DNA from: Thermosulfurimonas dismutans
Lineage (GTDB): Bacteria; Desulfobacterota; Thermodesulfobacteria; Thermodesulfobacteriales; Thermodesulfobacteriaceae
DNA length: 32,000 nt
Assembly (NCBI RefSeq): GCF_001652585.1
Contig: NZ_LWLG01000004.1
Location: 1 to 32,000 of the forward strand
Direction: 5' to 3'
Below are positions 1-12,300 of this stretch, piece after piece (position 1 is the first letter of the stretch; every line of letters begins with the position of its first letter). The notes under the pieces were generated by a model. That model saw only the letters and a list, made by a program, of their open reading frames with translations, made no database searches and had not been told where the DNA came from. The translations under genes were made by a program, and so were the position numbers.

Positions 1-243
1 TTGGTTTTTCTGGAATATCCGGAGCCTATTCGGAATTATATTTACACCACGAATCAGCTTGAAAGGCTGATTAAAGAGGTCAAGCGCAGAACCAAGGTGA
101 TAGAGGTTTTCTGTTAGCCTGGGGCACTTTACAAGGTAGTCTATCTGGTGCTTAGGGGTCTAGAGGAGAAATACCGTTCGCGAAAACTGAGAGGTTTTGA
201 GGATCTTATGGAGGAAGGCCTCTTGTTCTCCGGACACAGTTGA
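1..243 (+). pseudogene. 3' fragment of an IS256-family (Mutator-type) transposase gene with an in-frame TAG at 115-117. The 5' part lies outside the window.
   Basis: Frame +1 from base 1 reads LVFLEYPEPIRNYIYTTNQLERLIKEVKRRTKVIEVFC*PGALYKVVYLVLRGLEEKYRSRKLRGFEDLMEE..., ending at TGA 241-243. The block P-x-x-I-R-x-x-I-Y-T-T-N-x-x-E-R-L-x-K-E-x-K-R-R-T-K and the later ALxKxVYLxL segment match the conserved C-terminal region of IS256/Transposase_mut proteins. The TAG sits where an uninterrupted FP-x-E-x-AL stretch is expected. Confidence 0.6.
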
Positions 244-351: not shown

Positions 352-384
352 GAGGCCCCTCCATGAAAAACAAGGAGGAGCCTC
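352..384 (-). terminator. Putative stem-loop terminator at the distal end of the envelope operon
   Basis: On the minus transcript GAGGCTCCTCC-ttgtttttcat-GGAGGGGCCTC forms an 11-bp stem with one G-U pair, 13 nt after the stop at 397-399. The trailing AAATTTCATTC is only weakly U-rich and the loop is large, so confidence is moderate. Confidence 0.35.
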
Positions 385-396
385 TTCTGAAAAAGA

Positions 397-1311
397 TTAT
401 TTCAACACAAAAACCACTTTGGCTTCAGCCAGGAAATTGGCTCTCTGGTCATGCACATAAATGGCAGCAGCAGCATCGGATGAAATTTTAGCGTCGGTGG
501 ATTTGTAAACTCCAACCGCTTTAACTATCATAGGGTTTTTAGCTCCCCAGCTAGTCAAAAGAGCTTTGGCTTTGGAAAGATCGGTAGTGAAACCTCCGCA
601 TCCACGCTCCACTAAAATGTTACTGACTATCTTAGATGGATCAAAAACCACCTCATTTTTGTCAGTAATAATCCTATTCACAAGAGCAGGCTTAAAAGCA
701 TATTCCCTTACATCCACAATAAGACCATCATGAACTTCCTTAAGTTCCGAAGGAGCGGCCACCTCAGGCTTCTCCTCCTTCTCTATTTTAGACTCCGGAA
801 CTTCGGGCACTTTCGGTGAGATTTCTTTAGGAATGAGGCGAGGTTTATATTCTGGTAATGAAGGAGGTGTTAACCCTTCCTCTTTTAAAAGCGGCAAAAT
901 AATATCATACATTCCGCCACGGCCACGAATATAAAGACGCATACACACTTCAGCGTATCCGCGGTCAGGATAGTATTTCTCACCACATTTCACTGCCCCC
1001 CGCAAGAATCCTTCCACTCGAGTACGAATTACATCCGAAGCCAGCATACCATCCCTAACCGTGGTCTCACCGTAAAGATGAAGCCCCTGAAGGATTTCCA
1101 ATAATTCCCTTTGGGCCACCACCTCAGCGGCTCTGATGGCCCGATAACGACTCTGGCCCTCCTCCGATATCCCTACTACTTGGATATACCCCTCCTGAAA
1201 GATCTTGACAGGATCCTTAATAGTTTGCCATCCCTGAGCCCAAACCAAAGTAGAAATAAGTAAAATTGAAATTGCTAATAATCCTATTCCACATTTTCTC
1301 TTCTCTCTCAT
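397..1311 (-). CDS. Exported LPP20/FlgP-like domain protein with an uncharacterised C-terminal domain
   Basis: 304-aa ORF. AGGAGGT lies 5 nt upstream of the ATG. Signal peptide MREKRKCGIGLLAISILLISTLVWA/QG. The segment YIQVVGISEEGQSRYRAIRAAEVVAQRELLEILQGLHLYGETTVRDG fits the LPP20-family pattern (G-x-G ... A-x-R-A-A ... A-x-R-x-L-x-E ... G). The C-terminal half (HDGLIVDVREYAFKPALVNRII...) was not recognised. Confidence 0.7.
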   Translation of the reverse strand: MREKRKCGIGLLAISILLISTLVWAQGWQTIKDPVKIFQEGYIQVVGISEEGQSRYRAIRAAEVVAQRELLEILQGLHLYGETTVRDGMLASDVIRTRVEGFLRGAVKCGEKYYPDRGYAEVCMRLYIRGRGGMYDIILPLLKEEGLTPPSLPEYKPRLIPKEISPKVPEVPESKIEKEEKPEVAAPSELKEVHDGLIVDVREYAFKPALVNRIITDKNEVVFDPSKIVSNILVERGCGGFTTDLSKAKALLTSWGAKNPMIVKAVGVYKSTDAKISSDAAAAIYVHDQRANFLAEAKVVFVLK

Positions 1312-1334
1312 CTAAAACCTCCTTAGTTAGTGAT

Positions 1335-2555
1335 TTAATAAACATTCATCACATTGCGTAAGCGTAGTATAGCTAATAATAACTCCGCGCCGTCTACATA
1401 ATCGTTAGGACGAAAAGCACCTGAGAGATTAGTCTCCATAAGCCCTCGAGTAACCACATTCATTACAGCATTAAACCAGGGAGCAGTAGGGGAAACATCC
1501 GGATAGGGAGAGGTGTCCTGCCCAAAATATTTAGTAGCTAAGCTTTTATCCCCGGTGATTTTTATAAGTAAGTCTTCCAGAATAAAAGCCAGCTCTTTCC
1601 TGGTGAGGGGCTCATCTGGTTTGAAGAGATAGGCTTTCGTAGTTTCGTCATAAACCGGCTCAAGTCCTCTAACCCGCCATTTAATTACCGTAAGAATTTC
1701 TTCTTTAAACATGTGATTCATTACATCCGCAGGAACAAAATCAGGTTTGGGTTCGCTCCCTGGAATGGGAATTCGTCCGGAAAAGAATTTATCCAGGTGT
1801 AATTCATCCACTAACAAAGCCGCTACATCTCCCCGGCCGACCTGGTCCTTTACAGCTATCTTTTTGGCCACATTTGTAAGGGTATATTGTGCTGAAGCCC
1901 TCACAATTTTTTGAACTTTACGATAGAGAATGTCCGCTTTATCATGCCATTTTCCAGGAGAAGATGAAAGAACCAGAGAAAAACTTTGCTCTGCTTTACG
2001 AAATTCATAGGCTTTTAAATAAGCTACTCCCATAAAATAGTGAACTGCCGATCGAGTCTGATAGTAAATGAGATCCTTTTCTACAACTTTATCTTCATCA
2101 AGAGCCTTATGATAGTATTTCTCCGCTTCCTTAAGCCATCCCTTGGGCCTAGAATGAGTATAAACCCGGATACCAGTAACATATATGGAAAATTTGTCCG
2201 AGGGATCCTCCGCCTTCTTTAAAGCCTTCTTAAAGAACTGGAGAGCCCTTTCCACTTCGACTCTTTTATGATCCAGATCCTTCTCTTTTTCGGCCCGCAT
2301 GGCTGCTACCAAGGCCTTACCGGCATAAGCCCGCGCATATCCCGGATCTAGGGCCAGTGCACGCTCAAACTTAGCTTCCGCCGCCGAAAGATCTCCCTTC
2401 TCCAAAAGTTTCATACCCTGTAAATAATGATGGGGAGGAGTATCCTCTAGAGACACCGAGGGCTGAGATTTAGGAGCACAGCCATAAACCCATATTATCA
2501 AGGCAAACAAAAGAATACTACGAAAAACTCCTCTTTTTATGCTCTTTTCTCTCAT
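1335..2555 (-). CDS. Lipoprotein with TPR repeats and two C-terminal SLH-like domains
   Basis: 406-aa ORF. GGAGGT lies 5 nt upstream of the ATG. Lipobox-like LIIWVYGC/A. TPR-like helices (GDLSAAEAKFERALALDPGYARAYAGKA...). Two SLH-like segments: FVPADVMNHMFKEEILTVIKWRVRGLEP...LFKPDEPLTRKELAFIL and YPDVSPTAPWFNAVMNVVTRGLMETNLSGAFRPNDYVDGAELLLAIL. Confidence 0.7.
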   Translation of the reverse strand: MREKSIKRGVFRSILLFALIIWVYGCAPKSQPSVSLEDTPPHHYLQGMKLLEKGDLSAAEAKFERALALDPGYARAYAGKALVAAMRAEKEKDLDHKRVEVERALQFFKKALKKAEDPSDKFSIYVTGIRVYTHSRPKGWLKEAEKYYHKALDEDKVVEKDLIYYQTRSAVHYFMGVAYLKAYEFRKAEQSFSLVLSSSPGKWHDKADILYRKVQKIVRASAQYTLTNVAKKIAVKDQVGRGDVAALLVDELHLDKFFSGRIPIPGSEPKPDFVPADVMNHMFKEEILTVIKWRVRGLEPVYDETTKAYLFKPDEPLTRKELAFILEDLLIKITGDKSLATKYFGQDTSPYPDVSPTAPWFNAVMNVVTRGLMETNLSGAFRPNDYVDGAELLLAILRLRNVMNVY

Positions 2556-2567
2556 TTAAAACCTCCA

Positions 2568-3617
2568 TTATTTTATAAATTTCTGGAAGATAACTTTCAG
2601 CTGTTCCTTAGTCCTTTCCTGTTCGGCCAATCTACGGGCCCGTTCAGCAGTGGTTTGCACCAAAAATCCCACCTTTACTTTCTTTGCTAATATTGGATCA
2701 TCTATAACAATAATAGCTTCATCAGGATGCAGTCCGGTCTCTGTTACCGTGGCCTTACCAAGGTCAATGTAACGAAGCTTTTCTTTACCACTTATAGGAT
2801 CTCTCTCACGTCTAAGTTCCATTATGATTACCTTATCACCAGGTTTAAGACCATCATTGGTACCAAGATTAATGTAAGCAATCTTAGTAAGCTTTTCGTT
2901 GGAATAGTTACTCATGATTTTACTAATATATCCATAGATAGGAATAGCTTCCTGAATTTTTACCGGTACCCAGCGAGCAAGAGTATTTTCCAAAGCCTCC
3001 TGAACCAGACCACAAGTAATAATGCAAGATTGTGTAATAGATTTTACATTTGCAGCCTTATCTGCCACATTAAAACTAGTTACTGTGCGTCCGGAGGAAA
3101 GATCAATAATACGAAGAGAAACGGAAGTTTCTACTTCTTCCGTACAGGTCTTCAATTCAATATCTTTATCTATTTTGGGAGTAACTCTATTAATAGAACC
3201 AACAATCACATAATCAATATCTTTGCCCAAAGCAAAATATTTTCCCTCTATAACCTCCCAGTCTACTCCGTGACTCTCCTGATATCCGAGCTCAGCAGCT
3301 ATCTTTTTCGCCTGGGCCCTTTCCACAACCTCATAGCGCCCCATCTTAGCCACCACATTATGAAGAACATCCGTAGCCATGGGACCAAGACTACATTTTG
3401 TCATGTCCGTAAGTCTGGAATGATCGGCAATATTCAAAATAGCAATACGTGGAATCTTCTTTTCTATGATGTAACGGGGAGGCATAACTGAAGCCATTTG
3501 ATTATCTTCAGCACGCTGTTCATACATAGTTAGATTTATATTAGGGGTAGAAGTCATCGTAGTACATGCTGGAACTATTATCAGCATAAAAATCAGAATC
3601 TTTAAAATTATCCTCAT
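2568..3617 (-). CDS. CsgG-family-like (FlgO/LpoB-fold-like) lipoprotein with a C-terminal SH3-like barrel segment
   Basis: 349-aa ORF. AGGAGGT lies 6 nt upstream. Lipobox LIIVPAC/T. PRIAILNIADHS...LHNVVAKMGRYEVVERAQAKKIAAELGYQESHG resembles the CsgG-family core (v-a-V-x-x-F-x-n ... L-x-x-x-L-x-x-x-g-r-F-x-V-v-E-R-x-x-l-x-x-i-x-x-E). The C-terminal part is GYISKI...AYINLGTNDGLKPGDKVIIME...LGKATVTE. Confidence 0.65.
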   Translation of the reverse strand: MRIILKILIFMLIIVPACTTMTSTPNINLTMYEQRAEDNQMASVMPPRYIIEKKIPRIAILNIADHSRLTDMTKCSLGPMATDVLHNVVAKMGRYEVVERAQAKKIAAELGYQESHGVDWEVIEGKYFALGKDIDYVIVGSINRVTPKIDKDIELKTCTEEVETSVSLRIIDLSSGRTVTSFNVADKAANVKSITQSCIITCGLVQEALENTLARWVPVKIQEAIPIYGYISKIMSNYSNEKLTKIAYINLGTNDGLKPGDKVIIMELRRERDPISGKEKLRYIDLGKATVTETGLHPDEAIIVIDDPILAKKVKVGFLVQTTAERARRLAEQERTKEQLKVIFQKFIK

Positions 3618-3641
3618 ATTCTCACCTCCTTTTTACTTATA

Positions 3642-4775
3642 CTATTCACCAGAATAAACAATCCGTGCCCCTTTCATTTCTACCTGAGAGAGAAAAACAC
3701 CAATATCTCTCAAAGCTCTACGAAAAGCGAGGTTTGCCGAAGTAGGATCTTGGTCACTAAAAACTTCTACTTCCATATAGGTTCCATATTGACGAGCTAC
3801 TCTAAAATCCCAGCCGAGCTGTTGAAAAAGTCCAAAAAGCTGATCCTGAATATCCTGAGATACATCCCGAAAGATAAAGACCACAAACTTCTCTCTCTTG
3901 GTGCTAAAACGATTGACTATTTTGGCCACCAGTTGATCGGCGCACCTGGCAGCAATCTTTTCCACAGCTCGAGCAGCTCCCTCTTCTATTCCGTAATCTC
4001 CCCCTCGAGAAATGGTTTTGGAACGCTTGATTACATTAGCGAAAAGTTCTCCTGTAGTAACATCAAAGGCCTTAAGACTGAGAGTAGCATATATAATCCA
4101 AAAACCATCCGAAGTGGGCCTTTTTCCTGCCTGAATATCTACCAGAACCACCGCATCTCCATCTTCCTGTCTGGCAATTTGAATAGCTGTTTCCTCATCA
4201 ATAGCCAACTCCGAACTCCGGGTCTTGATGCGAGCAATTTGATCCGGGAGGAAAACCCTAAAACCATAACCTGCAAGCTTGTCTTCAATTCTGTTTATTA
4301 CTTCCTGGACGGCCATACTTTCATAGGGAAGAGAGGTCCTAGTCCGCTTGGCATATAGGACTACTACCCGCCTCTGATCAAAGGTCGCCTTCTGGAAGGC
4401 CTTTTGGAACCTCGGATCCTGACGAAACTGAGCTATTAAATTTTTAAGCTTATAATCATCAACTTCCACTCTTACTTTTACCTTGTATACCTGATCAATA
4501 GGATCCTGACCTTCAGCCAGTACATCATAGTGACGTATATAACCCGCACTGGCTGAGATAATACGATCATAATCCAGACGCCCTTCAACCACCCGGGTAT
4601 TGGACTGAATGTACGCTCCCATGGCCTGCTCCACGGCCGCCCTTAAGGCATTATTTATAGCGGCCTGCCGGGTAGGCCCTGATCCCGTAGCCGTAATCGT
4701 AACCGCCTGAGCCCAAAAAACCGAACACAAAACTAAACATAACCCCAACCAAATTATTTTCCCTGTGCTCTTCAT
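3642..4775 (-). CDS. Exported FlgT-like multi-domain protein (LPP20/FlgT-N-like module plus alpha/beta domains)
   Basis: 377-aa ORF. GGGGGT lies 4 nt upstream. Signal peptide ...LVLCSVFWAQA/VT. ATGSGPTRQAAINNALRAAVEQAMGAYIQSNTRVVEGRLDYDRIISASAGYIRHYDVL...YKVKVRVEV matches the FlgT-N/LPP20-type pattern. It is followed by RRVVVLYAKR...GDAVVLVDIQ..., an alpha/beta segment reminiscent of TolB-N/CsgG-like folds. Confidence 0.6.
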   Translation of the reverse strand: MKSTGKIIWLGLCLVLCSVFWAQAVTITATGSGPTRQAAINNALRAAVEQAMGAYIQSNTRVVEGRLDYDRIISASAGYIRHYDVLAEGQDPIDQVYKVKVRVEVDDYKLKNLIAQFRQDPRFQKAFQKATFDQRRVVVLYAKRTRTSLPYESMAVQEVINRIEDKLAGYGFRVFLPDQIARIKTRSSELAIDEETAIQIARQEDGDAVVLVDIQAGKRPTSDGFWIIYATLSLKAFDVTTGELFANVIKRSKTISRGGDYGIEEGAARAVEKIAARCADQLVAKIVNRFSTKREKFVVFIFRDVSQDIQDQLFGLFQQLGWDFRVARQYGTYMEVEVFSDQDPTSANLAFRRALRDIGVFLSQVEMKGARIVYSGE

Positions 4776-4809
4776 ACTTACCCCCTTTATTTTGTATTTA
4801 AAAATTTCC

Positions 4810-7077
4810 TTATTTTGTATTACCGTTAATTATCTTTGTTTTTCGGTTTTCTACTAGAGCTTTCATGGCTTCAAGGGTAGGATTATTAGGTTGAAGTTTT
4901 AGAGCTCGCTCTATAAGCTTTTTGGCCTCCTCCACCCTATCTTTAAAAAGATAATATCGAACTGCTAACTGATAAATTTTTACCTCATAAGGAAATTCTT
5001 CTAAAGCTCTATCTATTATCCGAGCCAGTTTTTCATCCTCTTCTAATAAGGTATACACATAAACTAGCCAGTAATAAATTTCTTCATTGTGGAGTATTTT
5101 ATAAGCCTTTTCCAGTTTCTCGCACGCCTTGCCATAGTTGCCTTCCTGTAAAAACTTTTTACCCTCGGCTAGAAGCTCTTCGCCCTTTTTTTGAAAGGCC
5201 TTTAGATCAAATTTTACCTCCTGGCCCTCAGGATAAGGAAAATTAAGATATGAAACTACCGTAATCGGCCCTTTAATTTTGAAATTCAGGGGATCTTTGC
5301 CCAAGAAACAAGCTTTCAATATTAAAGAAACTTTGCTTTCTATATTTAATTCATTTTCTAAAAAATTGACTTTTTCAAGCTTAACTTCGCCCTTTATTAC
5401 CTTAAGGGCGACCTTATTTTCTCTGAGCGTGACTCTCGAAGCAGAAAACGAACCATCTTCTACCCGTATACCTTCCTTAAAGGCGCTTATCTTGCCCCCT
5501 TCAACCAAAACCGTGGAAATACCTTTTACTACTAAACCCTCTTCACCCTTGTAAAAAAAGCTCTCTTTGAAAGAAGCTTCCCCCTCCACCAGTACTGCCC
5601 TTTTGGCGTTCAAAATTTTTATTTTTTCCCCGTTAAGTTTTCCTCCAGATTTAACTTCTAAGCCCTGCCACCATCCTTTCTTAGCTTCAAATATAGCTTC
5701 TTTTGCCAGGAGTTCTCCCTCTATTACCAGCTTCCCTTCAGGATTAAAAGCCAGACGGACTCCCGGATCTATTACCGTTTTGCTTCCGGCAGGCACCTTA
5801 ATAAGACCCTCAACGGTATATGTTCCGCGGCCCAGTTTGGCAGGCAGATCTCCCGAAAGAGAAACTCCGGTTACCGGGATATTTACAGGACCTATCTGAA
5901 CAAAGGACGAGCGATTGCCAGCCTTATCTAAAGCTGCTACCCGATAAAAATACCTTTCCCCGGCCTTTACCTCCTTATCTAGGAAATTGAGATCTCCTAT
6001 ACGGGCAATTTCTTGATAGCCAGAAAGTGGCTCGCAGCTTCTCAAAACCACAAAACCCGTAGTAGTCCCGTCTACACATTTCCAGGAAAGCCGAACAGCT
6101 TTACCTTCAACTCTGGCTTCCAAATCCTTGGGCGGAGCTGGAGGTATGCCATCTATATTGATAGGAGGAACAAATTCCAGCCATTCCTGGCTTTCCCCTT
6201 GCTGATTTTTTAAACGCACCAGAAGATATTGATTCTGCGTTTCGTCTCCTTTTTGAACCACATAAAAGCCTTCATACACCCCGGGACGCTCCATTTCTAC
6301 CATTTTAATACCCTGTTTAAAGGTCCCTATATCAAAGGTGGCCTCAAGTCCCGGATCCCCCTCCAGAGCCACCACTATGCGATCACCTATTTTAAAAGTT
6401 CGATCTGACACATTGGTAATTACACGTAAAATCTTGGGCTTGCGTGTGGCGGCAGAAAAACCGGGAACTAAACTGGATACTTGATAAGCCCAATCAAAAA
6501 TAAGACTCTTCAGCCTGACCTGGCTGGAACTACTTAAAACATTACCTAATACTTTTGCAGCGAGCCCTATAGGATCAGTAGCAATATCTATCTTGCGACG
6601 ACTAACATCTTCTCGCCAACAGGCAAGTTTTTGCCCTTTTTTATCAAACAAACACAATTCAGCATCTATTTTAAAATGCTTCAGGAGAATAACATTTACC
6701 CCAGAAAACTGATATACAGTAATAGTAAAAAAACCATCTATGTCCTTAAGTTGTTTAGCTATCTCCTTGGGATTAAAAGTTTTAAGGGCAAGGCTTACAA
6801 CCTTTTCCGGGAGTGAACTGGCATAACGAATAATATATCCTTTGCCAGCCATATAATTTTGAACTACTCCTCGCAACATTTTTTTAAAATTTTGATCTAT
6901 TTTTGCTTCTCCTGTTACAAAAGGAGGTAAAATCACTACGCGACGCGGAAGCTTTTTCTCAGGAATATAGATGACTTTAGAAGACGATTTTTTGTCTTTA
7001 GATGCCTGAGAAGCTAGAACATTTCCGGTCAGAAAAACAAAAGTAATTAAAAAAAGGTAAACAAGCTTTCTCACCAT
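4810..7077 (-). CDS. Large exported multi-domain protein: DUF799(GNA1162)-like N-domain, barrel domain, fibronectin type III, parallel beta-helix-like repeats, C-terminal TPR
   Basis: I place the start at the internal ATG 7075-7077 (MVRKLVYLFLITFVFLTGNVLAS/QA, a clean signal peptide). This overlaps the upstream stop as TTATGGTGA. The tracked ORF runs to 7161, but that extension lies inside the SpoIID-like gene. RRVVILPPFVTGE...GKGYII...FFTITVYQFSG...LFDKKGQKLACW resembles DUF799. PPAPPKDLEARVEGKAVRLSWKCVDGTTTGFVVLRS...YFYRVAALDKAGNRS is FN3. Repeated G-x-L/V-x-V/I-E-G segments suggest a beta-helix. The C-terminus is TPR (EGNYGKACEKLEKAYKI...ALKLQPNNP). Confidence 0.65.
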   Translation of the reverse strand: MVRKLVYLFLITFVFLTGNVLASQASKDKKSSSKVIYIPEKKLPRRVVILPPFVTGEAKIDQNFKKMLRGVVQNYMAGKGYIIRYASSLPEKVVSLALKTFNPKEIAKQLKDIDGFFTITVYQFSGVNVILLKHFKIDAELCLFDKKGQKLACWREDVSRRKIDIATDPIGLAAKVLGNVLSSSSQVRLKSLIFDWAYQVSSLVPGFSAATRKPKILRVITNVSDRTFKIGDRIVVALEGDPGLEATFDIGTFKQGIKMVEMERPGVYEGFYVVQKGDETQNQYLLVRLKNQQGESQEWLEFVPPINIDGIPPAPPKDLEARVEGKAVRLSWKCVDGTTTGFVVLRSCEPLSGYQEIARIGDLNFLDKEVKAGERYFYRVAALDKAGNRSSFVQIGPVNIPVTGVSLSGDLPAKLGRGTYTVEGLIKVPAGSKTVIDPGVRLAFNPEGKLVIEGELLAKEAIFEAKKGWWQGLEVKSGGKLNGEKIKILNAKRAVLVEGEASFKESFFYKGEEGLVVKGISTVLVEGGKISAFKEGIRVEDGSFSASRVTLRENKVALKVIKGEVKLEKVNFLENELNIESKVSLILKACFLGKDPLNFKIKGPITVVSYLNFPYPEGQEVKFDLKAFQKKGEELLAEGKKFLQEGNYGKACEKLEKAYKILHNEEIYYWLVYVYTLLEEDEKLARIIDRALEEFPYEVKIYQLAVRYYLFKDRVEEAKKLIERALKLQPNNPTLEAMKALVENRKTKIINGNTK

Positions 7078-8609
7078 AACTTCTTGATTTCTGTACCGGG
7101 ATAATAATAAAATAGAATCTCTCGATAGGTATATTTCTTTCCCATAAAGGCTGCTCCCCACTGTGAGTATCCTACCCCGTGCCCAAAACCTCCACCCTCG
7201 AAAATGAATTGATCTCCATTCTTTTTTATAGATGATAGTAAAATATCCGGAAGTTTTAAAGCCCGTCGAAGAGTAGTTCGAGTACGTAAAACTTTAACCC
7301 CATTTCTGGCTATAAGTTTTATTTTTATAACTCGCCCTGAAGGCCCTTTTTCAACCGGTTCAATAGCTGTCAAGCCTATAACTTTTATCCCAATACGATT
7401 AAGTCTTTCCTCTACCTCCTTTATATTGAAAACTCTTCGCCAGCGAGCCATTTTTCCCTTAAGACTTTCTGGATCAGGCTGAGCTCTGAGATAAGGTTTA
7501 GATAAACTAAAAACAGCTTTCGGATCCGCAGTATAACCACCACTATTAGCCATATACATAGCTAATATGGGCCTATTCTTATAAACCAGTACTTCTCCCT
7601 CCGTTTCTCTTACTGCTCTGGTAGATCTAGGATGTTCTTTATCCACTCCACCATAAGCTTGATCTCCTTCATAATCTACTAAATCATAGGGCTTGTTTTT
7701 GCGATGAAGCAATTGATAATAAGCATAAGTACGGGCTGCCACGGCTTGAGCTTTTAAGGTTTCAAGTGGCCAAGAAGCCGGAGACTCGGAAGGAACCACC
7801 GAGAGAAGATATTCTTCTATATCTAAAATATTAATAACCAACAATTTTCCCTGATAAATCTCCACACATACTTTACCGCGCACCCGTTTTTTGCGAGGGC
7901 TTTCCACCTTAAGGGGCCCTGAACCCCGGAAACAAAGCCTTGAAACTCCAACCCTTTTATCACCGATACACAATTCTCGTCCAATAGCCCGTACTAAAAA
8001 AGCTTCATTACACCCTAAAATTTCATTACAAACTGGAGTTCCTTTTATCAAAATCTCTTTTATTCCCTTGGCCAACCTTACCCTCACCCTGGGTCTTACT
8101 ACTTTGATTTCAGGAGGTGGAGGCGTCGGAATTATGAGCAGCCTTTTCAGTAAAGCCTCAGCCTGGAAACGAAAACGTCCCTCTGGATAGAACTTTAAGT
8201 ATTTTTCAAGAACTAAACGAGCTTCCTCTTTACGCCCCAAGTCAAAAAGAAGCAAACCCTCTCTATATAGGGCTACTTCTTCCTTTTCAGGATATTCCTT
8301 TTCTATCTGCTGATAGACCTTTAAAGCCTCCTCCGGGGCATCTAAAAAGGTTGAGAGCAGGGCAGCCTTAGACAGAAGGGCCTCGGCTCTAGTGGCTCGC
8401 CGGCGAGAAATTTCATAGGCTGTCTCATAGTTCTCCAGGGCCTCCATATATTTCCCTACATCAATGAGATAGCTGGCATAATTCAGGTACCACCGGGCCA
8501 GTCTCTCGGTTTCCAGATCCACCTGGGCCAGCGAATAACCCCTCCATAAATTCACAACTAGAATCACCCAAACTACGACCAGAAAAAAGTTTCTAGTTCT
8601 GACCATCAT
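7071..8609 (-). CDS. Exported TPR-SpoIID/LytB-domain protein (peptidoglycan-remodelling family)
   Basis: 512-aa ORF. Signal peptide MMVRTRNFFLVVVWVILVVNLWRGYSLA/Q. N-terminal TPR (GKYMEALENYETAYEI...). SpoIID hallmarks: EEYLLSVVPSESPASWPLETLKAQAVAARTYAY, ANSGGYTAD, GGGFGHGVGYSQWGA. Confidence 0.85.
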   Translation of the reverse strand: MMVRTRNFFLVVVWVILVVNLWRGYSLAQVDLETERLARWYLNYASYLIDVGKYMEALENYETAYEISRRRATRAEALLSKAALLSTFLDAPEEALKVYQQIEKEYPEKEEVALYREGLLLFDLGRKEEARLVLEKYLKFYPEGRFRFQAEALLKRLLIIPTPPPPEIKVVRPRVRVRLAKGIKEILIKGTPVCNEILGCNEAFLVRAIGRELCIGDKRVGVSRLCFRGSGPLKVESPRKKRVRGKVCVEIYQGKLLVINILDIEEYLLSVVPSESPASWPLETLKAQAVAARTYAYYQLLHRKNKPYDLVDYEGDQAYGGVDKEHPRSTRAVRETEGEVLVYKNRPILAMYMANSGGYTADPKAVFSLSKPYLRAQPDPESLKGKMARWRRVFNIKEVEERLNRIGIKVIGLTAIEPVEKGPSGRVIKIKLIARNGVKVLRTRTTLRRALKLPDILLSSIKKNGDQFIFEGGGFGHGVGYSQWGAAFMGKKYTYREILFYYYPGTEIKKLW

Positions 8610-10809
8610 CCTTGATCTTAAACTCCTTGCTCACTCCCATCACAGAGACTTCACCCCACAAATCTTTCTTTATTTCGGGCCTAAGCTGTACATTTCCCCT
8701 CATGTCCAGATGAAATTTAAGAAGCGGAGAGGAAAGGAAAAACCTTTTTATATACAAATCACTAATTCCTCCCTCTACGGCAAATCCCAAAGCCTCAAAG
8801 ACTATCGTATCTTTAAGCTTGGTGGGATTAAGTTTTACCAAAGAAAGAACGTTCAAGAACCAGCGTAGATTACTATTCAGGTGAGAAATTTTAAGTATTT
8901 TGCCACCTCTTATCTCGCCTACACCCTCAAAAGAAAGTTTATCCAAGAGTTCCTTGACATTGTCTCCCTCGGTCTCCATCGAAACCTTAAAAGTAAGATT
9001 TCCCAAAATATAAACCGGAGCCTCCCTGAGAAAACAGGCCAGAAAATTGTCCACCGGGGCCGAAAGGGTCTGAGTCTCTCCCGAAAGTAAGAGCTTCCCT
9101 CCCTTTTCAATCTCTCCGGAAAGCGCAACGCTGGTATAACAGCTTTCGGCCCTCAGCAAGAAATCGGCCGGCTCTTGAGATAGTGAAAGCTTTAAAAGTA
9201 TTCGCTCTAGGGGCATAAAGTCTCCATACTCCATAGTATCCAAAGAAAGTTCCCATTCAGGAGCTATCTTGCGAAGATGCTCCAGAAAACCGAAATCAAA
9301 TTTGGTGGAAGCCAAATTGGAAGAAGCGGTGGGTTCCGGCTTTACCGAGGTCTCCCTTTCTTCTGAACTCAGAGAAACGAGCTTAAGCGTCCGGCCTCTG
9401 AGGGAAAGCCTTTCCGGAGTATATTCTAGAAAGGCCTCATCAAGATTAATATCCAGATCCCGGTCCTGAATTCTGGCCTCTAAGCGGAGGTTTTCCTTCT
9501 CTTTCTTAGAGGCCAGAAATTTAACAAAATTCAAATCTTTAAAACGAAAACTTTCAACTTCGAGATTGATAACGGCCTCCGGCCAAGAAAAAGGCCACCC
9601 CAAGCTTCCTTCAATCTTGACCTTTCCACCATTTTCGTCTCGAAAAGCCAGAAAAAGGTCGTCTATCCCGATCGCTTTCTCTTTCAGGCTCTTCAAACTT
9701 ACTCTTGCAGAAGACGGAGCCAAGAACGAAAGGATCTTTTTCCAGTCCTCACCTTCAATTTTTACCTTCCCATTCCCAAGAATCTCTATCAGGAAGTTTA
9801 GTTTCAGATCAGTATTATTCCCATATATTCCCTCCAGCTCTTTGATCCCAAATAAAGAATCCTCAATCTCTACCTTCAATTTCGGAAAAGAGAAACGGAC
9901 ATCCTTTAAAGAGAGAGTAACCGAAGGAAATCGAAAACTGTAATGATTTTCATCGTATGAGAGTTCCCCCTTCAAATAACAACTCAGGATTTCCCGACCA
10001 GCGGCAAAGACACTTACTTTGCTTTCTCCGATTTCACCACTAAAAGATAAAAGACTCCAGTTCTTATCTCCCGAAACTAAGCTCACTTTACTCTGATTAA
10101 TTACCAAGACACCACTTAATTCCGGATATTCCAGCTTTAACCAGGGGAACTCCTTCTCAAAAGAAGATAAAATCTTATGAGGAAAAAATTTATCCAAAAC
10201 TTCATAAACTGTTGAAAGCTCAAGTTTGAAGCCAGAAAAAGTCAAAGCTAGATTATCCTTTTGGGCCTTTGCATCTGAAATCAACTCTCCCTCAAAGGCC
10301 GAGAGGGTGCTATTAGATAAATCTATACGCGTGGCAGAAAATTGAAGCCTGGAAGCCTCCTTCAACAAACTGACATTCTCCATCCTTAAGCTTTCAAAGA
10401 TCTCAATACCATCAAGGGCAACTTCTTTTACATGGAGTTTTAAAGCTTGAGAGCGCCAAACTAGCTCAATCCCTTTCAGAGAAAGTACGCCCTCTATTTT
10501 TAGAGGTACATCCTTTAAAATGGCCTCCTTTTTGAGGAATTTCAGGACTTCAAGAGTCCTTATTTCAACTTTACGTATCGAGACCTTAAAGCTTTCATCT
10601 TCTCTATATAAGATTTTTGCGCCCTCCAGGGCCAAACCAAACTCAGGGATGTTCAAGCTATCAACCCTAAATTCGCGAGCCTCCCGGAGAGGCGAAGGGA
10701 GGAAAAGTAAAGCCCTGAGATTGAGCCTGGTAAAGGGACCTTCCGTACAAAAGGCTGTTGGAACAATTCCTAAAAATAATAGACTTACAAAACCAAGGAA
10801 AATTTTCAT
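8593..10809 (-). CDS. Exported AsmA-like/TamB-like beta-rich protein (assignment tentative)
   Basis: 738-aa ORF and first gene of the operon. N-terminal hydrophobic signal or anchor MKIFLGFVSLLFLGIVPTAFC. Long alternating beta-strand-like sequence. The C-terminal block FEALGFAVEGGISDLYIKRFFLSSPLLKFHLDMRGNVQL resembles the AsmA C-terminal region (f-x-x-l-x-x-x-x-x-i-x-n-G ... s-p-x-l-x-x-x-g-x-G-x-i-x-L). It overlaps the next gene by 17 nt. Confidence 0.5.
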   Translation of the reverse strand: MKIFLGFVSLLFLGIVPTAFCTEGPFTRLNLRALLFLPSPLREAREFRVDSLNIPEFGLALEGAKILYREDESFKVSIRKVEIRTLEVLKFLKKEAILKDVPLKIEGVLSLKGIELVWRSQALKLHVKEVALDGIEIFESLRMENVSLLKEASRLQFSATRIDLSNSTLSAFEGELISDAKAQKDNLALTFSGFKLELSTVYEVLDKFFPHKILSSFEKEFPWLKLEYPELSGVLVINQSKVSLVSGDKNWSLLSFSGEIGESKVSVFAAGREILSCYLKGELSYDENHYSFRFPSVTLSLKDVRFSFPKLKVEIEDSLFGIKELEGIYGNNTDLKLNFLIEILGNGKVKIEGEDWKKILSFLAPSSARVSLKSLKEKAIGIDDLFLAFRDENGGKVKIEGSLGWPFSWPEAVINLEVESFRFKDLNFVKFLASKKEKENLRLEARIQDRDLDINLDEAFLEYTPERLSLRGRTLKLVSLSSEERETSVKPEPTASSNLASTKFDFGFLEHLRKIAPEWELSLDTMEYGDFMPLERILLKLSLSQEPADFLLRAESCYTSVALSGEIEKGGKLLLSGETQTLSAPVDNFLACFLREAPVYILGNLTFKVSMETEGDNVKELLDKLSFEGVGEIRGGKILKISHLNSNLRWFLNVLSLVKLNPTKLKDTIVFEALGFAVEGGISDLYIKRFFLSSPLLKFHLDMRGNVQLRPEIKKDLWGEVSVMGVSKEFKIKDDGQN

Positions 10810-10818
10810 TAAAGAGAG

Positions 10819-10848
10819 ATTTTAGCGCCCTTACAAAAATTTAGTCAA
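10819..10848 (-). promoter_or_regulatory. Sigma70-type promoter of the envelope operon (TTGACT-N18-TAAAAT), giving a nearly leaderless first gene
   Basis: The minus strand reads gcTTGACTaaatttttgtaagggcgcTAAAATctctctttaATG. The -10 hexamer ends 9 nt before the ATG at 10807-10809, and there is no Shine-Dalgarno sequence. Confidence 0.4.
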
Positions 10849-10951
10849 GCAAATAAACCCTCCATAAAAATCAGCAAAAGCGAATTTTCTGGCTTGATTA
10901 GCCAATCAGAATCTGATAAAAGCTCTCCAAAGACTAAAATGGAGGCTAGAT

Positions 10952-11731
10952 ATGATAAAAAAGTTATTTCTATTTTTGATTTCCTTATGGATTTTAGGTA
11001 CTGGAAAGGCTTGGTCCTTAGAAATTGAGGGGGCCCTGGGAATATGGAGTCAGGATCCTTGGGGAGAGATAGCCTATAAGGGAGATGCCCTCACCATGGA
11101 CAAAAATCTGGACTTTGACATGAAGGATAGGTTTTACGGTCGGCTCAGGTTGAACTTACCCTTAGTTAACTTTTATCTAGGTTTCACTCCCGTTGAGTTC
11201 GATGGTGAGGGTCGGAAAGACGCAAGCTTTCGTTTCGGTGACGTGGTTTTCAACGGCACTCTGCCCTTCGATTCCTATTTGTCCATTGATCAGTATGACA
11301 TAGGTATCTTCTGGGGGATCCCATTTCTTAAAACGGCCACCAAGGTGGCTACGCTGGGCTTTGCGGGCATAAATTTGGAGTTAGGTATAAATCTTCGAGT
11401 GCTCGACATAAAAGCCAAAATTGAACAAGAAACCGTCGGAAAGGAAGAAAAGAGCTTTTTGATCCCCATCCCCATGATTTATGGAGGGCTCTTTTTGGAC
11501 TTCGGCCGTCTGGCGCTAGAGGGAGAGGTCCGGGGGATGAATTACCAAGACAACCATTATTACGATGTCGTAGTCCGTCTCAAAGGAATCTTGCTTAAGC
11601 CCGTCCCCCTAGGGCCCTCTCTTTTTGTAGGAGTAGGTTACAAATATCAAAATCTTGAGCTCGACATAAAGGATATCGAGGGCTCTCTGGAATTAACTGG
11701 GCCCTTCTTCGAAATAGGAGGAAGTTTTTAG
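10952..11731 (+). CDS. Outer-membrane beta-barrel protein (unassigned family)
   Basis: 259-aa ORF. GGAGG lies 6 nt upstream of the ATG. Signal peptide MIKKLFLFLISLWILGTGKAWS/LE. Alternating amphipathic strands. The C-terminal ...FFEIGGSF ends in Phe, which is typical of BAM substrates. Confidence 0.7.
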   Translation: MIKKLFLFLISLWILGTGKAWSLEIEGALGIWSQDPWGEIAYKGDALTMDKNLDFDMKDRFYGRLRLNLPLVNFYLGFTPVEFDGEGRKDASFRFGDVVFNGTLPFDSYLSIDQYDIGIFWGIPFLKTATKVATLGFAGINLELGINLRVLDIKAKIEQETVGKEEKSFLIPIPMIYGGLFLDFGRLALEGEVRGMNYQDNHYYDVVVRLKGILLKPVPLGPSLFVGVGYKYQNLELDIKDIEGSLELTGPFFEIGGSF

Positions 11732-12300
11732 TTATGTTCAAACCTCTTTCATTCATGACGTAGCGCGCAAGGTTTTTGGCCCCGCCATAGCCGCGGATAA
11801 ATTCCCGGCGCCACCTACCGGGCTAGGGAAGAAAGTTTAAATTAAAAATGAGGAACCGTGCGCCGGATAGCTGTTTCTGCCCTTGCGTTTTTAATCTGGC
11901 ATCTCTTAGGTTTCGCAGTCTTGGCGTGGGCCATTTCGGAGGAGTGTCTGCTTGCCTAGGAAATGGGAGTAAAAGCCTTTAGTCTCTCCAAGGAGACTCC
12001 GGTAAAAGCTTTACTGATTAGTAAGACGGAGAAAACTCCATCCTAAGCGGGGTAAAATCTGTCTGCTCGGGAGTTTCCCGAAGAGCGCCATGGGTCTTCA
12101 CCTACTGCTTTCTGAATGGTCTTCTCAGGGAGGTAAAGCACTTCGACCCAGGACGGCTGGGGAGAAAGATAGCCAAGCTTAATCCGGCCCGGGCCCCCTC
12201 ATGGCCCCGAAGTCCCCTTGTCCTTGGTGAGGGTAAGTAAGAGCGGAGCAACCCCGCGCCGCGCTCTACAAAGCGTCCAGCCGTAGAACCCCTGGCCCTA

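What the first reader, a model, noticed from the sequence alone, without database searches (positions are those of the whole stretch)
397..11731. All-exported seven-gene envelope operon plus divergent beta-barrel: candidate undescribed outer-membrane/periplasmic machine
**Operon structure (seen in sequence).** Seven minus-strand genes (10809 down to 397) are packed with overlaps of 17 and 7 nt and gaps of 12-34 nt.
- The last four genes have strong AGGAGGT-type ribosome-binding sites.
- One promoter-like element lies upstream and one hairpin lies downstream.
- A divergent gene encodes a beta-barrel ending in Phe.
- Every product starts with a signal peptide or lipobox.
- I saw no ATPase, no polytopic inner-membrane protein, no regulator and no obvious secreted substrate.

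**Domain content (by motif).**
- A CsgG-family-like lipoprotein.
- A DUF799(GNA1162)-like domain, heading a 755-aa FN3/beta-helix/TPR protein.
- Two LPP20/FlgT-N-like proteins.
- A lipoprotein with TPR and SLH domains.
- A TPR-SpoIID protein.
- An AsmA-like protein.

**Context from known systems.**
- CsgG-like plus DUF799-like lipoproteins co-occur in a widespread but functionally unassigned proteobacterial lipoprotein cluster.
- CsgG homologues form the curli and holdfast-anchor (HfaB) pores.

**Inference.** Adding peptidoglycan-binding (SLH), peptidoglycan-cutting (SpoIID) and intermembrane-bridge (AsmA-like) modules suggests a self-contained complex that spans or tethers peptidoglycan and outer membrane, or a secretion pore for a substrate encoded elsewhere. 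I know of no described system with this combination.
Basis: partly seen in the sequence, partly recalled or inferred. Interest (0 to 1): 0.8.

Follow-up and report, generated by a model that had tools for sequence, protein, structure and literature searches.

The report
Conserved FlgT/FlgP-like envelope ring operon
A seven-gene operon in the thermophile Thermosulfurimonas dismutans, also found in about 20 other genome contexts from several phyla, encodes only exported proteins that resemble the ring-building parts of flagellar outer discs, together with wall-binding and wall-cutting modules; this points to an undescribed cell-envelope ring scaffold rather than a secretion pore.

Summary
**Observation.** The operon is real. 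Seven tightly packed minus-strand genes (397-10809) each carry a single N-terminal export signal. The gene set recurs in about 20 independent genomic contexts: Thermodesulfobacteriota/Desulfobacterota, Aquificales, Thermosulfidibacter and Magnetococcales.

**Domain calls that hold**
- SpoIID/LytB, SLH, TPR and FN3 are well supported.
- AsmA-like is only weakly supported.

**What changes**
- The "CsgG-like" lipoprotein (G5) and the most conserved protein (G4) both match Vibrio FlgT best by fold. CsgG, PelC and GNA1162 are more distant matches.
- G7 matches the FlgP chains of solved flagellar motors (E about 1e-10). The match includes the beta-hairpin insert that correlates with ring formation.
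- No CsgG-type membrane hairpins are present.
- The divergent beta-barrel has no counterpart in any related cluster.

**Best reading.** This is a self-contained ring or disc scaffold, lipid-anchored to the outer membrane and tethered to peptidoglycan. It carries its own glycan-cleaving enzyme and a possible intermembrane bridge.

**Open question.** Whether it surrounds the flagellar motor is unresolved. Only 1 of about 20 neighbourhoods has a flagellar gene.

**Other points**
- In T. dismutans the operon lies in a low-GC island next to an IS256 remnant.
- No paper or curated family describes the cluster.

The parts
8593..10809 (-). G1 (TDIS_0860), 738 aa. Exported or N-terminally anchored, beta-rich protein with a conserved C-terminal third. 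Possibly a distant AsmA-like intermembrane bridge.
   Evidence: - The window protein has no Pfam, NCBIfam or PDB match.
- Orthologues give co-linear sub-threshold hits: AsmA N-terminus 26.2 bits (cut-off 29.8), AsmA C-terminus, YhdP C-terminus.
- It is present in 14 or more related clusters at 17-38% identity.
7071..8609 (-). G2 (TDIS_0859), 512 aa. Signal or anchor, then CpoB/YbgF-like TPR, then a SpoIID/LytB peptidoglycan glycan-cleaving domain.
   Evidence: - TIGR02669 scores 230 bits (cut-off 83.3) and PF08486 gives 1e-28.
- It aligns with solved SpoIID structures 4rwr and 5i1t, with the Glu of the VxSE motif retained.
- It is 60-68% identical across phyla.
4810..7077 (-). G3 (TDIS_0858), 755 aa. 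Signal peptide, G5-like alpha/beta domain, beta-sandwich, FN3, beta-helix, C-terminal TPR. It is a lipoprotein in the mesophilic (type II) clusters.
   Evidence: - The start is set by orthologue alignment.
- hhalign of the G3 N-terminus against G5: 86%, 188 columns.
- FN3 and TPR matches in PDB.
- Weak Beta_helix/NosD hits in orthologues.
- Lipoboxes in type II orthologues.
3642..4775 (-). G4 (TDIS_0857), 377 aa. Periplasmic FlgT-like three-domain protein and the most conserved member. N-terminal SHS2/FlgP-like domain with an insert, a TolB-N/CsgG-like middle domain, and an alpha/beta C-terminal domain.
   Evidence: - AlphaFold2 model pLDDT 82.
- Best fold match is FlgT 3w1e at 1.3e-11 over about 390 columns.
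- The profile hits C. jejuni FlgP (9hmf_C) at 5e-4.
- Pfam FlgT_N at 4e-4.
- 50-84% identity across phyla.
2568..3617 (-). G5 (TDIS_0856), 349 aa. Outer-membrane lipoprotein with a FlgT-M (CsgG/PelC/TolB-N superfamily) domain plus a FlgT-C-like beta domain.
   Evidence: - The lipobox VPAC is conserved.
- Model pLDDT 83.
- Best fold match is FlgT at 2.3e-13; PelC, CsgG and GNA1162 follow at about 1e-7 to 1e-6.
- Pfam CsgG 18.8 bits (below 20.8) and FlgT_C at 3e-3.
- Only 9 detectable homologue clusters among 5.8e9.
1335..2555 (-). G6 (TDIS_0855), 406 aa. Lipoprotein with TPR and a C-terminal SLH region. Predicted tether from the outer membrane to the wall polymer.
   Evidence: - Conserved lipobox.
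- PF00395 SLH 45 bits (cut-off 20.8); TPR_1/2 above cut-off.
- 47-76% identical across phyla.
- Two complete SLH-like motifs and one partial motif can be read in residues 226-406.
397..1311 (-). G7 (TDIS_0854), 304 aa. Exported, not lipidated. FlgP-type SHS2 domain with the hairpin insert, a Pro/Glu/Lys-rich linker, and a conserved C-terminal domain of unknown fold.
   Evidence: - The profile hits FlgP chains of solved motors: 9hmf_C 8.7e-11, 8z5n_2 6.4e-10, and 9yec, 9yfg, 9yds.
- The alignment across the insert is essentially gapless.
- Weak LPP20 Pfam hits in 4 of 9 orthologues.
- 353 homologue clusters, nearly all labelled 'hypothetical'; UniRef calls the window protein 'Putative lipoprotein required for motility'.
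10819..10848 (-). Sigma-70-like promoter candidate upstream of G1.
   Evidence: TTGACT-18-TAAAAT, 10 of 12 matches. It is consensus only; such sites are not enriched over shuffles.
352..384 (-). Hairpin downstream of G7; candidate terminator.
   Evidence: 11-13 bp GC-rich stem within a fold of -27.8 kcal/mol, z = -5.2. The T-tract is weak, and the consensus scan missed it because the loop exceeds 8 nt.
10952..11731 (+). G8 (TDIS_0861). TIGR04219 outer-membrane beta-barrel, divergent neighbour. It lies in the same low-GC island but is not a conserved member of the cluster.
   Evidence: - TIGR04219 scores 109.7 bits (cut-off 105).
- It ends in ...GGSF.
- No homologue in any of the related loci.
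1..240 (+). 3' remnant of an IS256-family (Mutator) transposase with an in-frame stop. It marks the edge of the low-GC island.
   Evidence: PF00872 Transposase_mut at 9.8e-12, matching profile positions 319-377 of 379. Sequence read.

Best explanation
**What it is.** The operon encodes a self-contained, Sec-exported structural assembly. I read it as a ring or disc scaffold that sits under the outer membrane and is stapled to the cell wall. It is not a CsgG-type secretion channel.

**Proposed mechanism.** Each step is marked as shown or inferred.
1. All seven products are exported. G5 and G6 are lipid-anchored. (Signals and conserved lipoboxes are shown; outer-membrane targeting is inferred.)
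2. G4 (FlgT-like) and G7 (FlgP-like) oligomerise into rings through the beta-hairpin insert in their SHS2 domains, as FlgP and FlgT do in flagellar discs. (Homology and presence of the insert are shown; oligomerisation is inferred.)
3. G5, and the paralogous N-terminal domain of G3, add TolB-N/CsgG-fold modules. In FlgT, PelC and CsgG this fold also forms rings under the outer membrane. (Inferred.)
4. The TPR arrays of G2, G3 and G6 scaffold the assembly. The SLH region of G6 fixes it to peptidoglycan or its secondary polymer. (Domains are shown; binding is inferred.)
5. The SpoIID/LytB domain of G2 cuts glycan strands locally so that a large structure can be inserted in or through the wall. 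(The catalytic motif is retained; activity is inferred.)
6. G1, a weakly AsmA-like beta-rich protein, may connect the assembly to the inner membrane. (Speculative.)

**Likely role.** Mechanical bracing or spacing of outer membrane against peptidoglycan, as an autonomous module that can move horizontally.

**What remains open.** Whether the ring encloses another machine, the flagellar motor being the obvious candidate. I put about 30% on that (see the first rival).
For: **Conserved synteny**
- The gene set recurs in about 20 contexts across at least four lineages.
- Two modules, G1-G2-G3 and G4-G5-G6-G7, occur in either order.

**Fold and sequence homology**
- G5 and G4 both match FlgT best by fold.
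- G7 matches FlgP chains of solved motors at 1e-10 to 1e-7. The alignment is gapless across the hairpin insert.
- PMC12222027 links that insert to ring oligomerisation.
- The same segment of G4 has pLDDT below 50 in the monomer model.
- G7 is related to G4, and the G3 N-terminus to G5, by profile-profile comparison.
- SpoIID and SLH score above curated cut-offs.

**Export**
- Each protein has one N-terminal hydrophobic segment, and the lipoboxes are conserved.

**Autonomy**
- Neighbourhoods show no enrichment of flagellar genes: 1 FliD in about 20 contexts.
- In T. dismutans the cluster is a 42% GC island in a 52% GC genome, next to an IS256 remnant. In other hosts its GC matches the flanks.
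- The wider G4 superfamily is very large: 6961 representatives at E <= 1e-3.
Against: - No oligomer was modelled, so ring formation rests on homology alone.
- All experimentally characterised FlgT- and FlgP-type ring proteins are flagellar. Known hosts are motile (T. dismutans). A flagellar role therefore cannot be excluded.
- G7 lacks the lipid anchor that FlgP has.
- The AsmA assignment for G1 is sub-threshold.
- The G7 C-terminal domain, and proteins X and Y of the mesophilic clusters, have no recognisable fold.
- There are no expression or localisation data.
- Fold matches have low TM-scores (about 0.3), because domain orientations differ.
Confidence: 0.45

Rival explanations
1. **Flagellar motor accessory.** The operon builds periplasmic discs or collars around the polar flagellar motor, analogous to the Vibrio H/T-rings (FlgT, FlgP, FlgO, MotX/Y) or the Campylobacter basal and proximal discs (FlgP, with TPR proteins PflA/PflB). 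G2 would open the wall for the wide disc.
For: - FlgT is the best fold match for G4 and G5.
- FlgP chains from motor structures are the only significant PDB matches of G7.
- A FlgO-like small protein sits in one related cluster (L016).
- fliD lies directly downstream in one context (L005).
- TPR scaffolds parallel PflA/PflB.
- T. dismutans is motile.
- UniRef labels G7 'lipoprotein required for motility'.
Against: - Only 1 of about 20 neighbourhoods contains a flagellar gene.
- G4 and its distant relatives hit FlgT_N but not FlgT_M or FlgT_C.
- G7 is not a lipoprotein.
- No MotX/MotY-like partner is present.
- SpoIID and AsmA-like components are not known in any flagellar disc (own knowledge).
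- The operon arrived in T. dismutans as a horizontally acquired island, which is harder to reconcile with a part that must dock on the resident L/P-rings.
Confidence: 0.3
2. **Secretion or export conduit.** A CsgG/PelC-like lipoprotein ring (G5, G3 N-terminus) funnels a substrate encoded elsewhere (amyloid, polysaccharide or protein) to an outer-membrane pore. TPR proteins would act as a periplasmic scaffold, as in PelB/PelC or curli CsgG.
For: - PelC, CsgG and GNA1162 are significant fold matches of G5 and G4.
- PF03783 hits are recorded for three G5 orthologues, and a CsgG hit of 32.7 bits occurs in the Magnetococcales cluster.
- A beta-barrel gene is adjacent in the window.
- GGDEF genes are adjacent in two contexts.
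Against: - The window G5 is below the CsgG cut-off and has no sequence match to solved CsgG.
- Its long hairpin (residues 136-172) is rich in Lys, Asp and Glu, so it is not a membrane hairpin (sequence, model).
- No barrel, glycosyltransferase, CsgA/E/F-like gene or ATPase is conserved with the cluster. The window's barrel is absent from all related loci.
Confidence: 0.1
3. **Tol-Pal-like wall-remodelling complex without a ring.** A lipoprotein-TPR-SLH tether, TolB-N-like modules and a CpoB-like TPR-SpoIID enzyme coordinate peptidoglycan turnover with the outer membrane (and with lipid supply through the AsmA-like protein), for example at division sites or poles.
For: - The G2 N-terminus resembles YbgF/CpoB (1.7e-7, sub-threshold).
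- The TolB N-domain is among the fold matches.
- There are weak LpoB hits.
- OmpA-family genes recur next to mesophilic clusters.
- SpoIID is the best-conserved enzyme in the cluster.
Against: - No TolQRA-like energiser or beta-propeller is present.
- The hairpin-insert SHS2 domains (G4, G7) are specifically those associated with ring formation.
- All Tol-Pal-type hits are below cut-offs.
Confidence: 0.1

Closest known systems
Vibrio polar-flagellum H-ring proteins FlgT, FlgP and FlgO (PDB 3w1e, 8z5n)
   Same: - G4 and G5 have FlgT as their best fold match.
- G7 aligns to Vibrio FlgP at 6e-10.
- A FlgO-like protein occurs in a related cluster.
- All are exported proteins associated with the outer membrane. 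In Vibrio they form rings under it.
   Different: - The cluster is not linked to flagellar genes.
- FlgT's three domains are split and rearranged: G4 has N + M + a different C domain, and G5 has M + C.
- The FlgT_M and FlgT_C Pfam models are not met.
- G7 is not lipidated and carries an extra C-terminal domain.
- There is no MotX/MotY.
- SLH, SpoIID and AsmA-like partners are added.
Campylobacter/Helicobacter flagellar basal and proximal discs (FlgP, FlgQ, PflA, PflB; PDB 9hmf)
   Same: [quoted passage not shown]
- Large TPR proteins act as periplasmic scaffolds.
   Different: - There are no PflC/PflD (HtrA-like or PilO-like) parts.
- Wall anchoring is by SLH rather than through the stator.
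- The genes form one operon instead of scattered flagellar genes.
- A flagellar association is not shown.
CsgG/HfaB curli and holdfast secretion pores, and the PelC ring of the Pel exporter
   Same: G5, the G3 N-terminus and the G4 middle domain share the TolB-N/CsgG-type alpha/beta fold. G5 is a lipoprotein, as CsgG and PelC are.
   Different: - G5 is below the CsgG family cut-off.
- It has no amphipathic transmembrane hairpins.
- No CsgE/F/A, PelB barrel or polysaccharide synthesis genes are present.
- FlgT is a clearly better match.
LPP20 / DUF799 (GNA1162) / CsgG-like lipoprotein clusters of Proteobacteria
   Same: The combination of domain superfamilies is the same: an SHS2/LPP20-like domain plus TolB-N-fold lipoproteins. 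GNA1162 (4hrv) is a significant fold match of G4 and G5.
   Different: - Those clusters are small (three or four short lipoproteins).
- They lack SpoIID, SLH, FN3/beta-helix/TPR and AsmA-like proteins.
- The DUF799 Pfam model does not hit G3.
- I did not examine such clusters here.
SpoIID lytic transglycosylase of endospore engulfment (PDB 4rwr, 5i1t)
   Same: The G2 C-terminal domain is a full-length SpoIID/LytB domain (230 bits), and the catalytic-motif Glu is retained.
   Different: - The host is a non-sporulating diderm.
- The domain is fused to an N-terminal TPR.
- No SpoIIM or SpoIIP partners are present.

Membership tests
FlgT (Vibrio H-ring protein) | Three Pfam domains FlgT_N, FlgT_M and FlgT_C in one protein, each above the gathering score | tested here: not met
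   - G4: FlgT_N only, 21.2 bits (cut-off 28.8).
- G5: FlgT_C only, 18.4 bits (cut-off 27).
- Distant G4 relatives hit FlgT_N but never FlgT_M or FlgT_C.
FlgT (Vibrio H-ring protein) | Overall fold similarity to the solved FlgT structure | tested here: met
   3w1e is the top Foldseek hit for both models: G5 at 2.3e-13 over 299 columns, G4 at 1.3e-11 over 391 columns. TM-scores are low, about 0.3.
FlgT/FlgP flagellar disc systems | Genomic or regulatory linkage to flagellar genes | tested here: not met
   Only L005 has fliD downstream. About 20 other contexts have none. Regulation was not testable.
FlgP (basal-disc / H-ring lipoprotein) | [quoted passage not shown] | tested here: met
   The G7 profile aligns to C. 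jejuni and Vibrio FlgP across this segment without gaps. G4 aligns likewise. The feature is defined in PMC12222027.
FlgP (basal-disc / H-ring lipoprotein) | N-terminal lipobox (lipoprotein) | tested here: not met
   G7 and its orthologues have an Ala-x-Ala/AQ-type signal peptide and no conserved Cys.
FlgP/FlgT-type ring formers | Assembly into homo-oligomeric rings | not testable with these tools
   No multimer prediction was available. The inference rests on homology only.
CsgG/HfaB secretion pore (PF03783) | Pfam CsgG score above the gathering cut-off | tested here: not met
   The window G5 scores 18.8 bits against 20.8. Three orthologues carry precomputed PF03783 hits. The profile has no PDB CsgG match.
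CsgG/HfaB secretion pore (PF03783) | Two amphipathic beta-hairpins that form the 36-strand membrane barrel | tested here: not met
   The only long hairpin in the model (residues 136-172) has the sequence YVIVGSINRVTPKIDKDIELKTCTEEVETSVSLRIID. It is highly charged and its tip varies in length among orthologues.
CsgG/HfaB secretion pore (PF03783) | Partner genes (CsgE/F/A or HfaA/D) | tested here: not met
   None appear among the conserved neighbours.
DUF799 / GNA1162 | Match to the family model or to the solved GNA1162 sequence | tested here: not met
   No Pfam hit in G3 and no 4hrv hit with the G3 profile. The relationship is only at superfamily level, through G5 and the fold matches of G4 and G5 to 4hrv.
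SpoIID/LytB domain (TIGR02669, PF08486) | Score above the curated cut-off over the full domain | tested here: met
   230.1 bits against 83.3, covering profile positions 2-270 of 270. PF08486 scores 100 bits.
SpoIID/LytB domain (TIGR02669, PF08486) | Catalytic Glu retained | tested here: met
   G2 'VVPSESPASW' aligns with 'VVASEMNASF' of 4rwr. The identity of this Glu as the catalytic residue comes from my own knowledge of SpoIID work.
SLH domain (PF00395) | Score above the gathering cut-off | tested here: met
   45 bits against 20.8, G6 residues 350-392. Further SLH-like motifs are visible by eye. Ligand binding was not testable.
AsmA-like intermembrane bridge (PF05170, PF13116) | Family model above cut-off; N-terminal anchor plus a long beta-rich groove | tested here: inconclusive
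   - The window G1 has no hit.
- Orthologues: AsmA 26.2 bits (cut-off 29.8) at the N-terminus, and AsmA and YhdP fragments at the C-terminus.
- No structure was predicted.
TIGR04219 outer-membrane beta-barrel | Score above the curated cut-off | tested here: met
   109.7 bits against 105 for G8. G8 is not conserved with the operon.

The most novel reading that the evidence does not exclude
The operon builds an autonomous, non-flagellar ring organelle of the diderm envelope. It would be anchored to the outer membrane, tethered to the wall by SLH, and able to insert itself with its own SpoIID-type enzyme and an AsmA-like link to the inner membrane. It would also represent the non-flagellar protein pool from which the flagellar H-ring and basal-disc proteins (FlgT, FlgP, FlgO) were recruited.
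Probability: 0.3. Interest if true: 0.8.

Novelty: new variant of a known kind. Interest (0 to 1): 0.6.

Why it matters
**Evolution of flagellar discs.** FlgT- and FlgP-type proteins are so far known only as add-ons that widen and brace flagellar motors. Their evolutionary source is an open question. PMC12222027 notes that FlgP comes from a broad family in which ring formation tracks one insert.

**What this cluster offers.**
- It is a conserved, self-contained operon.
- It combines such ring formers with wall-binding, wall-cutting and possibly membrane-bridging proteins.
- It is spread over Desulfobacterota, Aquificales, Thermosulfidibacter and Magnetococcales.
- It is either a new kind of flagellar scaffold in little-studied phyla or a free-standing envelope ring.

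Either outcome gives a concrete target for cryo-ET and genetics.

**Outer-membrane tethering.** It also adds an SLH-based link between outer membrane and wall in lineages where Pal/OmpA-type tethering is expected.

Tried and rejected
**Searches that gave little**
1. The genome-collection scan with the G5 alignment returned only 2 loci, because a single narrow peptide pattern was used.
2. Profile searches of G5 and G1 against PDB sequences found nothing meaningful.
4. Both structure-prediction jobs went to G5 and G4. G1, G3 and the G7 C-terminal domain remain unmodelled.
5. Proteins X (about 320 aa) and Y (about 445 aa), which replace G5 in the mesophilic clusters, show no detectable relation to G5, G4, G7, G3 or G1 by hhalign or Pfam. 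The G7 and G4 C-terminal domains likewise show none.

**Literature**
6. No paper mentions TDIS_0854-0859. No paper combines FlgT, SLH and SpoIID in a gene cluster. The DUF799/LPP20/CsgG search found nothing functional.
7. The Desulfofervidus paper says nothing useful about bacterial flagella.

**Hypotheses rejected**
8. Anti-phage defence system: no credible PADLOC hits.
9. Sigma-54 or sigma-28 promoter upstream of G1: not seen by eye in the 142-nt intergenic region.
10. tRNA-linked integration of the island: the only tRNA is at 31420-31496.

Full report
**1. Source and observation**

The window comes from Thermosulfurimonas dismutans. G4 is 100% identical to an NCBI protein of that species. 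The genes correspond to OAQ20928-OAQ20935; G5 carries the tag TDIS_0856, and I infer TDIS_0854-0861 for the set from the consecutive accessions. The flank encodes reverse gyrase, as expected for a thermophile.

Seven minus-strand ORFs fill 397-10809. Orthologue alignment puts the G3 start at the ATG at 7077 (755 aa), not the upstream GTG. With that start:
- Overlaps are 17 nt and 7 nt. Gaps are 34, 24, 12 and 23 nt.
- G4-G7 have GGAGG-type ribosome-binding sites.
- A TTGACT-18-TAAAAT element precedes G1. Such sites are not above shuffle expectation.
- A strong hairpin follows G7: -27.8 kcal/mol, z = -5.2.
- Each protein has exactly one hydrophobic segment, at its N-terminus.
- The G5 and G6 lipobox cysteines are conserved in orthologues. 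G3 is a lipoprotein in some lineages only. G4 and G7 have signal-peptidase-I-type signals.

**2. Domain checks**

*Strong*
- G2 carries a SpoIID/LytB domain: TIGR02669 230 bits against 83.3, and PF08486 at 1e-28.
  - It aligns end to end with solved SpoIID structures.
  - The Glu of the VxSE motif is retained.
- G6 has TPR plus SLH (45 bits against 20.8).
- The G3 profile detects FN3 and C-terminal TPR. Orthologues carry weak Beta_helix/NosD hits.
- G8 is a TIGR04219 barrel (109.7 bits against 105).

*Weak by sequence*
- G5: CsgG 18.8 bits (below 20.8), plus FlgT_C at 3e-3.
- G4: FlgT_N at 4e-4.
- G7 and G1: nothing.

**3. Structure and profile evidence change the picture**

- *G5.* The AlphaFold2 model (9-sequence alignment, pLDDT 83) matches Vibrio FlgT best: 3w1e at 2.3e-13, and the FlgT chain of the LPHT-ring structure 8z5n. 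PelC, CsgG, GNA1162, TolB and HpaA follow at about 1e-7 to 1e-5.
- *G4.* The model (40 sequences, pLDDT 82) also has FlgT as its best match, over its full length (1.3e-11).
- *G7.* The profile hits five FlgP chains from in-situ or cryo-EM flagellar motor structures: 9hmf_C at 8.7e-11, Vibrio FlgP 8z5n_2 at 6.4e-10, and 9yec, 9yfg and 9yds. Nothing else is significant.
- *G4 against FlgP.* The G4 profile hits 9hmf_C at 5e-4.

[quoted passage not shown] That insert makes the continuous sheet of each disc ring. The paper states that ring oligomerisation in this broad family correlates with the insert, as in FlgT.

In the HMMER alignments this segment of FlgP (VKVNGKDTVKDAMLRSSTITAQVNG) aligns without gaps to G7 (LHLYGETTVRDGMLASDVIRTRVEG) and to G4. 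It is among the best-conserved stretches. In the monomeric G4 model the same segment (residues 57-75) has pLDDT below 50. This would fit a region that orders only in an oligomer, which is an inference.

Profile-profile comparison gives two further links:
- G7 to the G4 N-domain: 84%, 159 columns.
- The G3 N-terminal 200 residues to G5: 86%, 188 columns.

No direct DUF799/GNA1162 sequence match exists.

G5 shows no CsgG-type membrane hairpins. Its one long hairpin (136-172) is rich in Lys, Asp and Glu, and its tip varies in length among orthologues.

G1 orthologues give co-linear but sub-threshold AsmA and YhdP hits at the N- and C-termini: 26.2 bits against 29.8, plus 4e-3 and 7e-5. "AsmA-like" is plausible but unproven, and PDB profile searches were empty.

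**4. Conservation and distribution**

G5 is rare and fast-evolving, with 9 clusters among 5.8e9 proteins. Looking up its homologues' contigs, and those of the much better conserved G4 and G7, showed the same gene set again and again.

- *Type I.* The order is G1-G2-G3-G4-G5-G6-G7, or the permuted G4-G5-G6-G7-G1-G2(-G3). It occurs in thermophile genomes and MAGs, including Ca. Desulfofervidus auxilii and uncultured Aquificales.
- *Reduced set.* Aquificaceae MAGs carry SLH-G7-G5.
- *Thermosulfidibacter takaii.* The G4 homologue P0022 is named for this species, and a contig carrying it shows G2-G3-G4 followed by a 339-aa gene.
- *Type II.* G5 is replaced by two unrelated conserved lipoproteins, X (about 320 aa) and Y (about 445 aa), giving G4-X-Y-G6-G7-G1-G3-G2.
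  - It occurs in Desulfobacterota metagenomes, in the isolate Desulfothermus okinawensis, and in an expanded form in Magnetococcales.
  - One 2.6-Mb genome has G6-G7-G1-G3-G2 without an adjacent G4.

Identities to the window proteins:

| Protein | Identity |
|---|---|
| G4 | 50-84% |
| G7 | 33-87% (50% or more outside the Aquificaceae loci) |
| G6 | 47-76% |
| G2 | 60-68% |
| G3 | 29-62% |
| G5 | 30-71% |
| G1 | 22-40% |

Family sizes:
- G4: 132 clusters at 90% identity.
- G7: 353 clusters.
- An exhaustive HMMER search with the G4 profile gives 49 representatives at E <= 1e-30, 1831 at <= 1e-10 and 6961 at <= 1e-3.
- The distant members are proteins of about 380 aa with FlgT_N plus a CsgG/LpoB-like middle domain. 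They do not carry FlgT_M or FlgT_C.

G8 has no homologue in any related locus. It is a neighbour, not a component.

**5. Is it flagellar?**

*For*
- Every characterised FlgT- or FlgP-type ring is flagellar.
- T. dismutans is listed as motile (PMC8780430).
- One context has fliD 105 bp downstream on the same strand.
- One cluster includes a weak FlgO-like protein.
- TPR proteins parallel PflA/PflB.

*Against*
- About 20 neighbourhoods (roughly 250-300 neighbouring genes) contain one flagellar gene. This is no more than chance in a flagellated genome.
- Recurrent neighbours are instead OmpA-family proteins (6 loci) and giant caspase-like Peptidase_C14 proteins (4 loci).
- G7 lacks FlgP's lipid anchor.
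- There is no MotX/Y.
- SpoIID and AsmA-like parts are unknown in flagellar discs (own knowledge).
- The operon behaves as a mobile unit.

On the last point: in T. dismutans the operon has 39-45% GC against 52% for the rest of the window, and it abuts an IS256 transposase remnant. In eleven other hosts its GC matches the flanks to within 0.02 in ten of them; in the Aquificales MAG (L006) the cluster is 0.05 lower.

I therefore favour an autonomous scaffold (0.45) over a flagellar accessory (0.30).

**6. Mechanism proposed**

The mechanism is laid out in the best explanation, with shown and inferred steps marked. In brief:
- Sec export and lipidation come first.
- G4 and G7 form rings through the SHS2 hairpin insert.
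- G5 and G3 add TolB-N-fold modules.
- TPR arrays scaffold the assembly.
- The SLH region tethers it to the wall.
- SpoIID cleaves glycan locally for insertion.
- G1 may link to the inner membrane.

A CsgG/Pel-like export conduit (0.10) and a ring-less Tol-Pal-like remodelling complex (0.10) remain as minor rivals.

**7. Novelty**

- All seven proteins are labelled hypothetical or by domain only in NCBI and UniRef.
- No NCBIfam equivalog exists.
- No paper in the searchable library mentions the locus tags or this combination of parts.
- There are no PADLOC hits.

The parts come from known families, and the nearest known systems are the flagellar outer discs. I therefore rate it a new variant of a known kind. 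There is a substantial chance (about 0.3) that it is a new, non-flagellar envelope structure.

**8. Limits**

- No multimer modelling was possible, and there are no models for G1, G3 or the G7 C-terminal domain.
- There are no expression data.
- There was no genome-wide co-occurrence test with flagellar genes.
- Fold matches are significant by Foldseek E-value but have low global TM-scores, because domain orientations differ.

Noticed in passing
window 1-11800 (against 12000-32000): The whole operon, G8 and the left flank have 39-48% GC, against about 52% for the rest of the window. In ten of eleven other hosts the cluster's GC matches its flanks to within 0.02 (0.05 lower in the Aquificales MAG L006). 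This points to recent horizontal acquisition in T. dismutans from a lower-GC donor. The closest cluster, L001, has 35% GC and 84% G4 identity.
   Followed up: partly
window 1-240 (+): This is the 3' end of an IS256/Mutator-family transposase gene (PF00872, 1e-11). It has an in-frame TAG at 115-117, so it is a decayed insertion sequence at the island edge.
   Followed up: partly
L001:1-2466, L022:4584-7913, L026:3942-7127, L027:5732-7045: Very large caspase-like (Peptidase_C14) proteins, one with WD40 repeats, lie next to the cluster in four independent contexts. In L007 a DUF4384 protein precedes G1. A functional link is possible but was not examined.
   Followed up: no
L010:11154-13521, L036:8317-10665, and about 10 other loci: In mesophilic (type II) clusters G5 is replaced by two conserved lipoproteins. 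X is about 320 aa. Y is about 445 aa and has a coiled-coil-like region. Neither has a detectable relation to any known family or to other cluster members.
   Followed up: partly
L010:9089-9751, L037:9098-9724, L028:8392-9096 and others: An OmpA-family (peptidoglycan-binding) gene recurs near type II clusters (6 contexts). In L010, L028 and L037 it lies divergently just upstream of G4. It may be a second wall anchor.
   Followed up: no
L005:19171-21056: A FliD (flagellar cap) gene lies 105 bp downstream of the cluster on the same strand. It is the only flagellar neighbour seen in any context.
   Followed up: partly
L011:15264-18378 (Magnetococcales): This is an expanded cluster with an extra TPR+CsgG-domain protein (CsgG 32.7 bits, above cut-off) and a second G4-like paralogue (FlgT_N at 5.6e-6).
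   Followed up: no
window 2568-3617 and 4810-7161: Public annotations disagree on start codons.
- G5 exists as 305-, 309- and 349-aa versions. Only the 349-aa form keeps the lipoprotein signal.
- The 755-aa G3 supported by orthologue alignment is not present as an exact sequence in the protein collection.
   Followed up: partly
window 12301-14040 (-): A YcaO cyclodehydratase domain is fused to a C-terminal TPR array (579 aa), immediately beyond the island. This is an unusual architecture and was not examined.
   Followed up: no
window 31420-31496 and 31447-31908: A tRNA-Arg(ACG) overlaps the 5' end of the longest QueF ORF, so the real QueF start must be further downstream.
   Followed up: no
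window 22506-23633 (+): A 375-aa ORF downstream of reverse gyrase has no Pfam match.
   Followed up: no
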